Shown: positions 1 through 3,000 of the stretch, one piece after another
How the letters are laid out: each line of letters starts with the position of its first letter
Position numbering within the stretch: the stretch's first letter is position 1
From: a virus
Taxonomy: Duplodnaviria > Heunggongvirae > Uroviricota > Caudoviricetes
Direction: 5' to 3' (one strand)
DNA length: 9,170 nt
IMG/VR virus record: IMGVR_UViG_2724679236_000012
Program-made: the position numbers

Positions 1-3000
1 TTTTCGTAATGATGGAGGCATTATTCACCTCTCGCAGCCTTTCGTCTGTCTTCTCTGATTTTGAAATACAGATTTGTCAGATAGGTGAGAAAGCCCAACA
101 CAAGGCTTCCAAGCACCCCAATCGCAGCCCACTGTGATGGACTGACCTGATCCAACCACTGTAAAAACCAGTAGCCAGCACTGCCTGCGGAGGTGCCGTA
201 GGCAATGCCCGTTGTTAACTTGTCCATGGATTTCATAGCCTCACCTCCGCAAATAACGGATGGTGTACACGGTTCGGAACGAAGAGGGAAAGGTATAGAA
301 GTTACATTAGCGTAAGGCTTGAACATCTATTCAAAAAGAAAAACGCCAGCGATTATTCTGGCGTAGCTGAAAGCATCATACAATTATCAAATACGAAAAT
401 TACAAAATCATTAAAACGCATCACGTTACATCATTTCTTTTTCTAAAAAAAAATCTTGATGAATATTGATGGGGAGAAACACCAAAATATCTTCTGAAAA
501 CACTTACAAAATATGACGTGTTTTCATAACCGCATATCTCAGCAACTTTTCCAACAGAATATAAATTGTAGCTTAATAACCTTTCCGCCATCACCATTCG
601 CTCTTCAAGAATTAATTTACTAAATGATAAGCCTTCGTGCTTTAATTTTCTTTTTAACAGACTTTCACTCAGATACAGCCTTGAAGATATATCACAAAGT
701 CTCCATGCTGCAGATATATCCGTGTGAATAATAGCCTTAACTTTACTTCCTAAACTATTAAGACATCCAAATAAAAAACTTTGCACTATTTTCTCTGAAG
801 ATAAGATAGCAAGACATGCAAGTGATATTTGATTTCTAACAACATCCACAGTTCTGCCATCACAATTCAAGCATGCAATCAAGTTCTTTAACAATGAAAA
901 ATCTTCACATTCCACCATCAAGTATGCCGGATAAAACCTTCTTACAGAAAAAGGTGAGAGTGTGTTGCTTTTAAAGAAATCATTAACTGTTTTCTCTTCA
1001 ACATCTACGATCATTACATGATCTATATTTGATAAAAAAATCTTTTAAATTGTAATCAATGAGAACAGCACTTCCTTTTTTAAACAAAATATCTTCTTTA
1101 CCAATTCGGACATCAAACGAGTTCAACACCAAAATGATAGAACATATGTATGGCATATTATCCACCTGATATCATTGGGGTTACACCAGGTAAGTATAGG
1201 TGGAAAATCAATATTCGCCAGTTCAACAATAAGGAAAATCTCATTGCATCACAAGTATAAAATCATGTATTTAACTCACAAAAACAAATTATTAAACCAA
1301 TCTGTTATATTATATATAGCTGCGTGGAATCATAATATTATATATTTTGACTGGCATGTTTACCAAATTTAAATTGCATCTCAATGGTTTGTTCAGCGTA
1401 AACAGAGTTTTTATACAAACTGACACTCTGGGTATCATAGTGTAGTTTTTACGATTGTAAATATCCTGCATGCAGGAACTCATCCTTTTGGATGATATCG
1501 CATACAATTAATTTACCATCAGTCTTAGAGCCAGTTCGTCCGGATAGGGATCGAAGTAATTCTGTGTAAGCAAGTAATCATTAGGATACTCACCCAAATA
1601 ATGCTTCAGCAGAGTCAACGGCGCAAGAAGAGGCAATGTGCCAGAACGATAGTTAAGTATAACCTCGCTCAACTCTTTACGCTGGCGTGTACTTAAGTAG
1701 TTACTAAAATACCCCTGTATATGCATCAGCACATTCGTGTGATTTTTACGTGATGCAGGTTTTCTGAGAATCGCCATCAGCTTATCACGATACACCTCAA
1801 AGTATGATTCAAGGTCCGCCCACTCGTGTATTGCAGCCACAAATGGCCCCATATCTTTATAGCCTGCCTGACTATGCGCCAACAACTGAAGCTTATAACG
1901 ACTATGAAAAGCTAATAACTCTCTTCTTGATAATTTCTCCTTGTAAAGGTGATTGAGCTCATGCAAAGCAAAAACTCTTTCAACAAAATTCTCACGAAGC
2001 ACTGGATCATGTAATCGCCCATCCTCTTCAACCGGTAGCCAGGAAAACTTTTCCATCAAAGTGCTCGTAAATAGTCCCACTCCATCTTTACGACCTCGAT
2101 TACCATTTTCATCATAGACACGCACGCGCTCCATGCCACAGCTGGGAGATTTAGCACAAACCACAAACCCCGATACATCCTTTAATTTGTCCATATAAGA
2201 ACGACTAAACTCTGTCATTCTCTCTGTCACATCCTCATTCTGGTCGTGGCTGAAACACATCCGTATATTTCCTTGCGTCGAGCGCACAAGACGTAGAGCA
2301 GGACGCGGAACTGGCAGCCCTATAGCCATTTCCGGACATACTGGTCTGAATGTTACCCATTCCACTAATTTGTCCATTAAAAAGTCAGCTCTTTTGTGAC
2401 CACCATCAAAACGAACAGCAGAACCGGCCAAACAACCGCTGATTCCAATCACAGGTTTTTTTATCATATTCTCCCCCTTGACTAATTCATTAACACATAA
2501 ACTGTGTAGTGCACGGAATAAATTGCCTTTCTGGCGTCATCACTGACAATTTTTCTGTTATGGACTATTCCTAATATAGTATGAAAGTTCTTTTAGTGAT
2601 CGGTCGTAATCATCTATCTTTCATACTTACTCTCAACTATCAAAAGTACAGGATTTATTATGAAGTTATGGCCTGTGTTGACTGGCATTGCGCTCTCTTT
2701 CACTCTTATAGCATGTAAGGCCCCGACACCACCTAAAGGTGTGCAGCCGATTACAAATTTTGACGCCAACCGCTACCTCGGAAAATGGTATGAAATAGCT
2801 CGCCTCGAGAACCGGTTCGAACGTGGTCTGGAACAGGTCAGCGCTACTTATGGAAAACGGAACGACGGAGGGATTCGTGTACTTAACCGTGGATACGATC
2901 CAACGAAAAATAAATGGAGCGAGAGCGAAGGTAAAGCATACTTTACTGGAGATACTAAAACTGCAGCGTTGAAGGTTTCGTTTTTTGGCCCCTTCTATGG

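What the first reader, a model, noticed from the sequence alone, without database searches (positions are those of the whole stretch)
1157..1507. Roughly 350-bp AT-rich non-coding gap with palindromes and short direct repeats between two cargo genes
The gap holds the promoter side of the AppY-like regulator, a perfect 14-bp palindrome (TCCTGCATGCAGGA, 1464..1477), a CATCC-TTTT-GGATG hairpin (1481..1494), and repeated TATTATATAT-like tracts near 1305..1345. The two 65-aa ORFs predicted here look like AT-rich artefacts. The region is long for a simple intergenic spacer and could hold an H-NS nucleation site, an sRNA, or regulator binding sites.
Basis: seen in the sequence. Interest (0 to 1): 0.4.

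Follow-up and report, generated by a model that had tools for sequence, protein, structure and literature searches.

The report
Prophage cargo-gene promoter spacer, ordinary
The 351-bp AT-rich gap is the ordinary control region between two passenger genes of an E. coli lambda-like prophage: a stem-loop that closes the upstream gene, then promoter-like sequences and a ribosome-binding site for an AppY-like regulator gene, with no sign of a hidden small RNA or protein gene.

Summary
The window is a DLP12-like lambdoid prophage of E. coli. The gap lies on the minus strand between a YbgA-family gene (stop 1508-1510) and an AraC/AppY-like gene (ATG 1154-1156), in the cargo slot between antiterminator Q and the holin. 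About 20% of complete E. coli genomes carry it, always in this context, in three lineages (A, B, C). Comparing them resolves five parts:
- a 58-nt stem-loop at the ybgA 3' end (1458-1515) that contains both hairpins. It has some compensatory support and no U-tract.
- an invariant 18-mer forming a σ70-like promoter (TTTACA-16-TATGAT, 1461-1434).
- a hypervariable zone of 23% GC (1251-1372) holding the TATTATATAT tracts, absent from lineage C.
- a proximal promoter whose -10 (CTATACTT, 1199-1192) is the only upstream element shared with 52-64% paralogues.
- a Shine-Dalgarno sequence.

Rfam, terminator scans and fold statistics give no sRNA. The 65-aa ORFs are not conserved. H-NS binding is plausible from composition only. 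In this window the regulator gene is frameshifted. Ordinary; low interest.

The parts
1508..2467 (-). Upstream cargo gene: YbgA-family protein (2-thiouracil desulfurase/DUF523 domain plus DUF1722), 319 aa. Its stop codon at 1508-1510 bounds the gap.
   Evidence: ORF list. Pfam PF04463 3e-40 and PF08349 2e-40. RefSeq annotation 'YbgA family protein' in the matching genomes.
1458..1515 (-). 58-nt composite stem-loop at the 3' end of the ybgA-like mRNA, starting at the stop codon. Its 3' arm overlaps the -35 of the distal promoter-like site. It has no U-tract, so it is not a canonical intrinsic terminator. It is inferred to be a 3' stabiliser or a weak terminator.
   Evidence: RNA fold -21.6 kcal/mol with z=-4.8 in lineage A, and -22.7 with z=-4.4 in B. 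Lineage C gives z=-0.14. Pair counts: 95.9% of cells paired, 3 pairs with double-sided changes (all from lineage C), and 5/500 shuffles reach that. The outer helix is 100% paired in all lineages. No terminator-like site.
1464..1477 (.). Perfect 14-bp palindrome TCCTGCATGCAGGA (5-bp stem, 4-nt loop as RNA).
   Evidence: Sequence. Lineage C has TTCTC-CTTA-GAGAA, with two compensatory pairs. Within-lineage SNPs break the perfect palindrome but mostly keep the stem. Chance p≈0.05 in the gap.
1481..1494 (.). CATCC-TTTT-GGATG hairpin, the apical part of the composite stem-loop in lineages A and B.
   Evidence: Sequence. Weakened in B and not conserved in C.
1434..1461 (-). Distal σ70-like promoter-like site: -35 TTTACA (1461-1456), 16-bp spacer, -10 TATGAT (1439-1434). 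It matches 10 of 12 consensus positions. It sits in an 18-nt block (1461-1444) that is nearly invariant: one spacer SNP among 35 distinct gap variants. The predicted start near 1427 would give a leader of about 270 nt. Function is inferred, not shown.
   Evidence: Promoter scan: joint best hit in 1-4000. Both hexamers are unchanged in all 35 distinct gap sequences of lineages A, B and C. Conservation island A vs C: 28/30 identical columns against 66% background, permutation p≈0.02. The block is found only in this context, in 75 IMG/VR and 21 metagenome loci.
1251..1372 (.). Hypervariable AT-rich zone (23% GC) with lineage-specific indels. It holds the 11-nt direct repeat ATATTATATAT (1307-1317 and 1335-1345) and several -10-like TATAAT strings. 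It is probably the junction between the ybgA 3' flank and the regulator's 5' flank, and the most likely H-NS-prone DNA.
   Evidence: A/B vs C identity falls to 0-30% here. B carries an extra ~55 bp. C lacks the repeat tracts. GC 0.23. Repeat chance p=0.08.
1228..1245 (-). Short conserved inverted repeat just upstream of the proximal -35: AATGAG-N6-CTTATT in A and B, AATGAGA-TTTT-TCTCATT in C. It is a candidate operator or UP-like T-rich element. Function unknown.
   Evidence: Alignments. It appears as a hairpin in the centroid fold. It is not conserved in paralogues beyond a T-run.
1192..1221 (-). Proximal core promoter of the regulator gene: weak -35 CTGGCG (1221-1216), 17-bp spacer, -10 TATACT (1198-1193). 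The extended -10 CTATACTT resembles the σ38 -10 consensus. The predicted start near 1186 gives a leader of about 30 nt.
   Evidence: TATACTT, at a fixed distance from the ATG, is the only upstream block invariant across A, B, C and the paralogues of 64%, 56% and 52% identity, which sit behind different Q genes. σ38 -10 consensus CTACACTT and degenerate -35 regions: PMC2759082.
1198..1204 (-). UCCACCU, complementary to the Shine-Dalgarno sequence. It could sequester the SD only in transcripts that start upstream of the proximal promoter. The evidence is weak.
   Evidence: Inverted repeat I7. Fold z=-1.06. A 7-nt complement arises by chance with p=0.03-0.08. Not conserved in paralogues at this position.
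1154..1167 (-). Shine-Dalgarno AGGTGGA (1167-1161) and the ATG start (1156-1154) of the AraC/AppY-like regulator.
   Evidence: Sequence. GGTGG plus ATG is invariant in all homologues. The RefSeq CDS start in intact alleles agrees.
421..1156 (-). AraC-family (YdeO/AppY-like) regulator gene. In this window it is a pseudogene, carrying a 2-bp deletion at the homopolymer run 1034-1040.
   Evidence: Alignment to the intact 243-aa allele. Pfam HTH_18 and HTH_AraC. NCBIfam best hit is YdeO at 126 bits, below the 348-bit cut-off. 31% identity to AppY.
343..364 (-). Canonical intrinsic terminator closing the regulator cassette, just before the holin gene.
   Evidence: Terminator scan: 7-bp stem with 5 GC pairs, followed by TTTTTCTTTTT.

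Best explanation
The gap is the composite intergenic control region between two cargo cassettes (morons) inserted between antiterminator Q and the holin of a lambdoid E. coli prophage.

Reading the minus strand, the parts come in this order:
1. The ybgA-like mRNA ends in a 58-nt stem-loop (1515-1458). This stem-loop accounts for both 'palindromes'. It most likely stabilises or weakly terminates that transcript.
2. An invariant σ70-like promoter-like block follows (1461-1434).
3. Next is a fast-evolving, 23%-GC spacer full of -10-like strings and indels. It is probably bound by H-NS like the rest of the AT-rich regulator cassette.
4. Last is the family-conserved core promoter of the AraC/AppY-like gene (-10 CTATACTT, weak -35, σ38/σ70 type), followed by a strong Shine-Dalgarno sequence and the ATG.

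In a lysogen the regulator would be transcribed from these promoters. During lytic growth, Q-modified polymerase from pR' reads through the whole region.

Shown: the anatomy, the conservation pattern and the context. Inferred: promoter activity, σ-factor use, H-NS binding and the role of the stem-loop.
For: Context: the region is a DLP12-like prophage with the order Q, lipocalin(+), ybgA(-), gap, AraC-like(-), essD holin. The same order holds in chromosomes and in free phages. The gap is present in 1083 of 5426 complete E. coli genomes.

Modularity: paralogous regulators of 56-64% identity sit directly behind other Q genes without blc-ybgA. They share only the last ~100 nt upstream.

Conservation:
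- Both hexamers of the distal site are unchanged in all 35 distinct variants. The conservation island has p≈0.02.
- TATACTT plus GGTGG plus ATG are invariant down to 52% protein identity.
- The middle zone cannot be aligned between lineages.

Stem-loop: z=-4.8 and -4.4 in lineages A and B. Three double-sided changes come from lineage C.

The two best promoter-like matches in 1-4000 both lie in the gap on the gene's strand.

A canonical terminator closes the regulator cassette at 364-343.

Related regulator: appY has a 620-bp AT-rich upstream region. Its expression depends on H-NS, RpoS and ArcA (PMC10057817).
Against: - No transcription data were available for any strain carrying this cassette, so neither promoter is demonstrated.
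- Promoter-like hits in the region are not significantly enriched over shuffles (7 vs 4.5±2.4).
- Only three lineages exist, and all compensatory changes come from one of them. The structure was derived from one of the aligned sequences, which inflates its apparent support.
- In lineage C the large stem-loop is not predicted (z=-0.14).
- The stem-loop has no U-tract, so its termination activity is doubtful.
- The spacer of the distal site is as conserved as its hexamers. A promoter alone does not require that.
Confidence: 0.7

Rival explanations
1. The gap is chiefly an H-NS nucleation and silencing platform that keeps the AT-rich regulator cassette off. The AT tracts are the functional elements and the promoter-like strings are incidental.
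For: GC is 23% in 1251-1372 and about 32% over 300-1450, against 40-47% in the neighbouring genes. Horizontally acquired AT-rich prophage DNA is a known H-NS target (PMC13502914 abstract). appY expression depends on H-NS (PMC10057817).
Against: The high-affinity motif TCGATAAATT has no match with 2 mismatches or fewer in the gap. The most AT-rich zone is the least conserved part, and its repeat tracts are missing in lineage C. Any binding would therefore be compositional, not a specific nucleation site. This reading is compatible with the best explanation rather than exclusive of it.
Confidence: 0.3
2. The gap encodes a small regulatory RNA. It could be transcribed from the invariant distal promoter, or be processed from the ybgA 3' UTR stem-loop.
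For: The promoter-like block is invariant. The conserved 3' stem-loop has z≈-4.8. Prophage late regions do encode sRNAs such as HnrS and StxS (PMC13502914).
Against: Rfam has no hit in the gap. There is no terminator-like site on either strand in 900-1800. The sequence downstream of the distal site has no conserved structure, and the 289-nt leader has z=-0.16. That downstream region is the indel-ridden zone.
Confidence: 0.06
3. The gap holds a small protein gene: the 57-aa CDS annotated in phage IdasGreatGrand (window about 1311-1484, minus strand), or one of the 65-aa ORFs.
For: An automatic annotation of PP925829.1 calls this CDS. An ATG at the same position opens an ORF in all three lineages, and the peptide (I/V)YNRKN(Y/F)TMI is shared.
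Against: The lengths are 57, 55 and 32 aa. A 2-nt indel changes the frame, so the conserved DNA downstream is read in different frames. The conserved 18-mer has no synonymous variation although its flanks differ by ~35%, which points to a DNA- or RNA-level constraint. No spaced Shine-Dalgarno sequence precedes the ATG. PGAP does not call the ORF in any RefSeq genome inspected. Pfam gives nothing for this minus-strand ORF and only a sub-threshold hit for the plus-strand one.
Confidence: 0.03
4. This reading proposes translational control of the regulator. The sequence UCCACCU (1204-1198) pairs with the Shine-Dalgarno sequence in long transcripts, meaning those from the distal promoter, ybgA read-through or late read-through. 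Only short transcripts from the proximal promoter would then be translated. Alternatively the hairpin could act as a thermosensor.
For: A 7-bp perfect complement (10/11 when extended) lies 30 nt from the SD and is invariant in A, B and C. The MFE and centroid folds pair it with the SD. A different 7-nt complement, UCAUCCA pairing with UGGAUGA, is present in the 56% paralogue, and a 6-nt version (UCAUCC) in the 52% paralogue.
Against: Fold z-scores are not significant (-1.06, -1.03, -0.23, -0.45). The chance of such a complement is 0.03-0.15. Both arms are invariant, so covariation cannot be tested. The anti-SD overlaps the -17 to -12 part of the proximal promoter, which may explain its conservation.
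Confidence: 0.1
5. Most of the gap is functionless junction DNA left by illegitimate or homologous recombination that joined two cassettes. The palindromes and repeats are chance features of AT-rich sequence.
For: No single feature is significant: palindrome p≈0.05, AT repeat p=0.08, 12-nt direct repeat p=0.40, and the flanking 31-nt inverted repeat/duplex p=0.12-0.48. The middle zone is hypervariable with indels.
Against: Two islands (1434-1461 and 1192-1209) are conserved well above background. The stem of the palindrome is kept by compensatory changes. The flanks of the gap are therefore constrained, even if the middle is not.
Confidence: 0.2

Closest known systems
Upstream region of appY (DLP12 prophage, E. 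coli K-12), and of the related prophage AraC-like regulators PatE, PsrA and PsrB of EHEC
   Same: A long, AT-rich non-coding region lies upstream of a prophage-borne AraC-family regulator of the YdeO/AppY/GadX branch. appY has a 620-bp gap. Its expression depends on H-NS and RpoS (PMC10057817). PatE, PsrA and PsrB are prophage-encoded AraC-like regulators (PMC10877973).
   Different: The regulator here is only 31% identical to AppY and falls below the YdeO equivalog cut-off. It sits in the Q-to-holin slot rather than at the prophage end. No DNA similarity to the appY upstream region was looked for. Nothing is known experimentally about this regulator, and database names are generic.
Lambdoid-phage 'moron' cassettes. 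In the sense of Hendrix and colleagues, from my own knowledge, these are a cargo gene with its own promoter and terminator inserted between conserved phage genes.
   Same: The base composition is foreign. The cassettes are present or absent modularly between Q and the lysis genes. The regulator cassette has a conserved promoter-like element and a canonical terminator.
   Different: The ybgA cassette has no canonical terminator, only a U-tract-less stem-loop. Promoter activity has not been tested.
Prophage late-region sRNAs (HnrS, StxS)
   Same: They occupy non-coding DNA in the late region of lambdoid prophages of E. coli (PMC13502914).
   Different: HnrS is a 66-nt RNA with mapped ends and an intrinsic terminator, and it is restricted mostly to EHEC and EPEC. 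This gap has no terminator, no Rfam hit and no conserved structure downstream of its promoter-like site.

Membership tests
Moron cassette of a lambdoid prophage | Inserted between conserved phage genes and absent from otherwise related phages | tested here: met
   The order Q, blc, ybgA, regulator, holin is seen. The paralogous regulator sits directly behind Q, without blc-ybgA, in L088 and L089.
Moron cassette of a lambdoid prophage | Own promoter upstream of the cargo gene | tested here: inconclusive
   Conserved consensus-level sites lie at 1461-1434 and 1221-1192. No transcription data are available.
Moron cassette of a lambdoid prophage | Own factor-independent terminator downstream | tested here: met
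   This holds for the regulator cassette, which has a terminator at 364-343. It does not hold for the ybgA cassette, which has no terminator-like site in 900-1800.
Rho-independent (intrinsic) terminator, for the 1458-1515 stem-loop and the 14-bp palindrome | G+C-rich stem followed directly by a U-tract | tested here: not met
   Scans found 0 sites. The tail after the stem is CAAUCGUAAAAAC, and the UAUUUA stretch is itself paired in the outer helix.
Any curated RNA family (Rfam 15) | Covariance-model score at or above the gathering threshold | tested here: not met
   No hit in the gap at gathering or at E≤1. At E≤10 the only hit is a 13-bit match to a nematode snoRNA model.
H-NS high-affinity nucleation site | Match to the 10-bp motif TCGATAAATT within AT-rich DNA (motif from my own knowledge, Lang et al. 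2007) | tested here: not met
   No match with 2 mismatches or fewer in 1157-1507. The window has 12 matches against 17.3 expected. The AT-richness criterion alone is met, with 23% GC in 1251-1372.
H-NS-silenced xenogeneic DNA | H-NS occupancy and derepression in an hns mutant | not testable with these tools
   This needs ChIP-seq or expression data from a carrier strain.
σ38-type promoter | -10 element matching CTAYRCTT, with a degenerate -35 tolerated | tested here: met
   CTATACTT lies at 1199-1192 with a weak -35, CTGGCG. The consensus CTACACTT is given in PMC2759082. This is a sequence match only; RpoS dependence was not tested.
AppY/YdeO-type AraC regulators (the gene the gap serves) | C-terminal AraC-type double HTH plus full-length similarity reaching the family cut-off | tested here: not met
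   HTH_18 and HTH_AraC are present. The YdeO equivalog model scores 126 bits against a cut-off of 348. Identity to AppY is 31%. The protein is a distant paralogue, not an orthologue.
RNA thermometer or SD-sequestering leader | A leader hairpin that occludes the SD, is more stable or more conserved than chance, and lies within the transcript | tested here: inconclusive
   A 7-bp SD complement is present, but z≈-1 and chance p=0.03-0.08. It lies upstream of the predicted proximal start.

The most novel reading that the evidence does not exclude
The invariant block together with the stem-loop (1434-1515) and the anti-SD element (1198-1204) might form a transcript-origin switch. Long RNAs, whether from ybgA read-through, the distal promoter or Q-antiterminated late transcription, would carry a leader that masks the regulator's ribosome-binding site. 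Short RNAs from the proximal σ38-like promoter would be translated. The prophage would then express its AraC-like regulator only in stationary-phase lysogens and not during lytic growth.
Probability: 0.07. Interest if true: 0.4.

Novelty: new member of a known kind. Interest (0 to 1): 0.12.

Why it matters
There is little here beyond annotation hygiene. The analysis shows that the ORFs some phage pipelines call in this gap are spurious. It also places the likely control elements of an uncharacterised AraC/AppY-like regulator that rides on prophages in roughly one fifth of complete E. coli genomes. Relatives of this regulator (AppY, PatE, PsrA and PsrB) rewire acid resistance and virulence programmes. 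If the regulator proves to matter, the two conserved promoter-like blocks and the recurrent inactivation of the gene would be the starting points for studying when lysogens express it.

Tried and rejected
- Rfam, whole window and gap alone: nothing in the gap.
- Terminator scans: none in the gap.
- Small-protein reading: the ORFs are not conserved in frame or length.
- H-NS motif search: no match.
- Long-range pairing between the ybgA 3' UTR and the regulator's start region (31-nt inverted repeat 1134-1164/1489-1519): duplex energies are not better than shuffles, p=0.12, 0.35 and 0.48.
- 12-nt direct repeat 1243-1254/1373-1384 flanking the variable zone, as a possible insertion footprint: chance p=0.40.
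- Leader structure: z=-0.16.
- More divergent lineages, sought to strengthen the covariation test. A species-representative genome scan found only one contig, a probable contaminant. An IMG/VR pattern scan and a metagenome pattern scan returned only lineages A, B and C; 99 of the 120 metagenome matches were random 17-mer hits.
- The invariant block in any other genomic context: none found.
- Literature on this cassette or its proteins by accession and keywords: nothing specific. The PatE paper (PMC3416394) is not held.
- YbgA homologues in phages, to trace the origin of the 3' flank: uninformative.
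Full report
**Observation.**
- The gap 1157-1507 (351 bp) lies between the stop codon of a 319-aa minus-strand ORF (1508-1510) and the ATG of an AraC-like ORF (1154-1156).
- TCCTGCATGCAGGA at 1464-1477 is a perfect 14-bp palindrome.
- CATCC-TTTT-GGATG is at 1481-1494.
- The 'TATTATATAT tracts' are an exact 11-nt direct repeat, ATATTATATAT, at 1307-1317 and 1335-1345.
- The two 65-aa TTG-initiated ORFs exist.

None of these is improbable on its own.
- A perfect palindrome of 14 bp or more appears in 4.7% of dinucleotide shuffles of the gap. About 0.75 are expected per shuffled window, and the window has a second one at 6043-6056.
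- The AT repeat has p=0.08.
- Promoter-like hits number 7 against 4.5±2.4 expected.
- The gap has 31.9% GC against 40.1% for the window. The adjoining regulator gene is just as AT-rich at 32%, so the AT-rich island is about 300-1450.

**Context.** The window is a DLP12-like lambdoid prophage of E. coli, at 99% identity to many chromosomes.
- The minus-strand gene order is ybcK, ybcL, ybcM, ybcN, ninE, ybcO, rusA, ylcG, antiterminator Q (3340-3717), a lipocalin gene on the opposite strand (2660-3184), a YbgA-family gene (DUF523/2-thiouracil desulfurase plus DUF1722; 1508-2467), the gap, an AraC-family gene (421-1156) and the holin essD.
- The same Q-to-holin cargo block occurs in other prophage backbones and in free phages, namely Lambda_2E9 and relatives and IdasGreatGrand.
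- The gap itself is found in 1083 of 5426 complete E. coli genomes, and in every locus inspected it is in this context.
- In this window the regulator gene is a pseudogene, through a 2-bp deletion at the homopolymer run 1034-1040.

**Comparative anatomy.** All homologous gaps collected fall into three lineages: A (351 bp, this window), B (about 406 bp) and C (about 318 bp). The collection comprises 148 loci with 35 distinct sequences, plus 21 metagenome loci. No further lineage turned up in IMG/VR, metagenomes or species-representative genomes. The parts, read on the minus strand, are as follows.

1. *Stem-loop at the ybgA 3' end.* Immediately after the ybgA stop codon, lineages A and B fold into a 58-nt composite stem-loop (1515-1458).
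   - Energies are -21.6 and -22.7 kcal/mol, with z=-4.8 and -4.4.
   - Half of the '14-bp palindrome' pairs with upstream sequence, and the CATCC/GGATG hairpin is the apex.
   - In lineage C this large fold is not predicted (z=-0.14).
   - The 5-bp stem of the palindrome survives there as TTCTC-CTTA-GAGAA, with two double-sided changes. The outer 5-bp helix survives with one more.
   - That makes 3 compensatory pairs, reached by 5 of 500 shuffles. All come from a single lineage, on a structure derived from one of the sequences, so the support is moderate only.
   - No U-tract follows, and the scans find no terminator.
   - I infer a 3' stabilising or weakly terminating stem-loop, not a canonical terminator.

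2. *Distal promoter-like site.* Overlapping the 3' arm is an 18-nt block, TTTACAATCGTAAAAACT (1461-1444), that is nearly invariant (one spacer SNP among the 35 variants).
   - With TATGAT at 1439-1434 it forms a 10/12 σ70-like promoter with a 16-bp spacer. It ties for the best hit in the first 4 kb, and both hexamers are unchanged in all 35 variants.
   - Between A and C, 28 of 30 columns are identical against a 66% background, permutation p≈0.02.
   - The block occurs nowhere else.
   - Its conservation is at the nucleotide level, not the protein level. The ORF that a phage pipeline annotates across it changes frame and length between lineages, and the 18-mer has no synonymous variation.

3. 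*Hypervariable spacer.* The zone 1251-1372 has 23% GC, cannot be aligned between A/B and C, and carries lineage-specific indels. The TATTATATAT repeats lie here and are absent from C.

4. *Proximal promoter and translation start.* The last ~100 nt are again conserved.
   - I compared the upstream regions of paralogous regulators of 64%, 56% and 52% protein identity; the 64% and 56% ones sit directly behind different Q genes.
   - The only invariant elements are TATACTT at a fixed distance from the start (window 1198-1192), the Shine-Dalgarno GGTGG and the ATG.
   - With the weak -35 CTGGCG at 1221-1216 and a 17-bp spacer, this is the family's core promoter.
   - Its extended -10, CTATACTT, matches the σ38 consensus CTACACTT in 7 of 8 positions. 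σ38 promoters tolerate degenerate -35 regions (PMC2759082).

**Interpretation.** The gap is long because it is the junction of two cassettes that each bring their own flank.
- The regulator with about 100 nt of upstream DNA moves independently of blc-ybgA.
- The regulator cassette ends in a canonical terminator at 364-343.
- The related K-12 regulator AppY is 31% identical. It has an even longer upstream region, 620 bp and AT-rich, and is controlled by H-NS, RpoS and ArcA (PMC10057817).
- H-NS binding here is therefore plausible on composition. The high-affinity motif is absent, and the most AT-rich segment is the least conserved. I see no evidence for a specific nucleation site.

**Rivals tested.**
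- *sRNA:* no Rfam hit, no terminator, and the 289-nt putative leader folds like shuffles (z=-0.16).
- *Small protein:* rejected as described above.
- *SD masking:* UCCACCU (1204-1198) is a perfect complement of the SD and is invariant in A, B and C. However, fold z is about -1, chance is 0.03-0.08, and the element overlaps the promoter and lies upstream of the predicted proximal start. This remains the most novel reading, at low probability.
- *Long-range pairing* between the ybgA 3' UTR and the regulator's start region (a 31-nt inverted repeat flanking the gap): not better than chance.
- *The 12-nt direct repeat* flanking the variable zone: expected by chance, p=0.40.

**Comparison and verdict.** This is an uncharacterised instance of a known kind: the regulatory spacer of a prophage moron encoding an AraC/AppY-like regulator.
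- It is not a member of any Rfam family.
- Its stem-loop fails the definition of an intrinsic terminator.
- The regulator fails the YdeO equivalog cut-off, at 126 against 348 bits.
- Database names for the protein are generic, and I found no literature on the cassette.
Its reading is partly supported: the promoter side and the ORF artefacts are right, the sRNA is unsupported, and H-NS is untested.
- Interest is low.

Noticed in passing
window 421-1156 (minus), run at 1034-1040; also L002, L005, L134, L159, L161: The AraC/AppY-like gene is frameshifted in this window by a 2-bp deletion at a T8 run in gene orientation. Of 61 distinct alleles collected, 13 are truncated. Several are truncated at the same homopolymer and others by IS1 insertion. 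The gene appears to be inactivated recurrently.
   Followed up: partly
window 3211-3254 (minus), terminator stem 3218-3241: A strong intrinsic terminator lies about 100 nt downstream of the Q gene. It gives a sub-threshold Rfam hit (RF02278, 26.4 bits against 50). It looks like the tR' of a short pR' leader transcript, the position where lambda 6S RNA and the Stx-phage sRNA StxS arise.
   Followed up: no
window 1508-2467 (minus) and 2660-3184 (plus): The phage cargo includes a fused 2-thiouracil desulfurase (DUF523) plus DUF1722 protein, and a Blc-like lipocalin encoded against the direction of late transcription. The cassette is present in about 20% of complete E. coli genomes and in viable phages. 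Its function in a phage is unexplained.
   Followed up: no
window 6043-6056: A second perfect 14-bp palindrome, AAATAATATTATTT, lies inside the ybcM coding region. This shows that such palindromes occur at about the chance rate in this window.
   Followed up: yes
L168 (phage IdasGreatGrand PP925829.1) 2512-2685 and 3684-3815, roughly window 1311-1484 and 2483-2614: The deposited phage annotation calls two short hypothetical CDSs in non-coding spacers of this cassette. One is inside the gap and one is in the blc/ybgA divergent region. RefSeq PGAP annotations do not call them.
   Followed up: partly
L087 (JARKOR010000151.1, 3.2-kb contig): The only hit for the regulator in the species-representative genome set is a short contig binned into a 'Candidatus Nanosynbacter' MAG. 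It is 98% identical to the E. coli gene, so contamination or mis-binning is the likely cause.
   Followed up: no
window 1134-1164 and 1489-1519: A 31-nt imperfect inverted repeat (71% complementary) brackets the gap. It makes the ybgA 3' UTR complementary to the regulator's SD/start region. Duplex energies are not better than shuffles in any lineage.
   Followed up: yes
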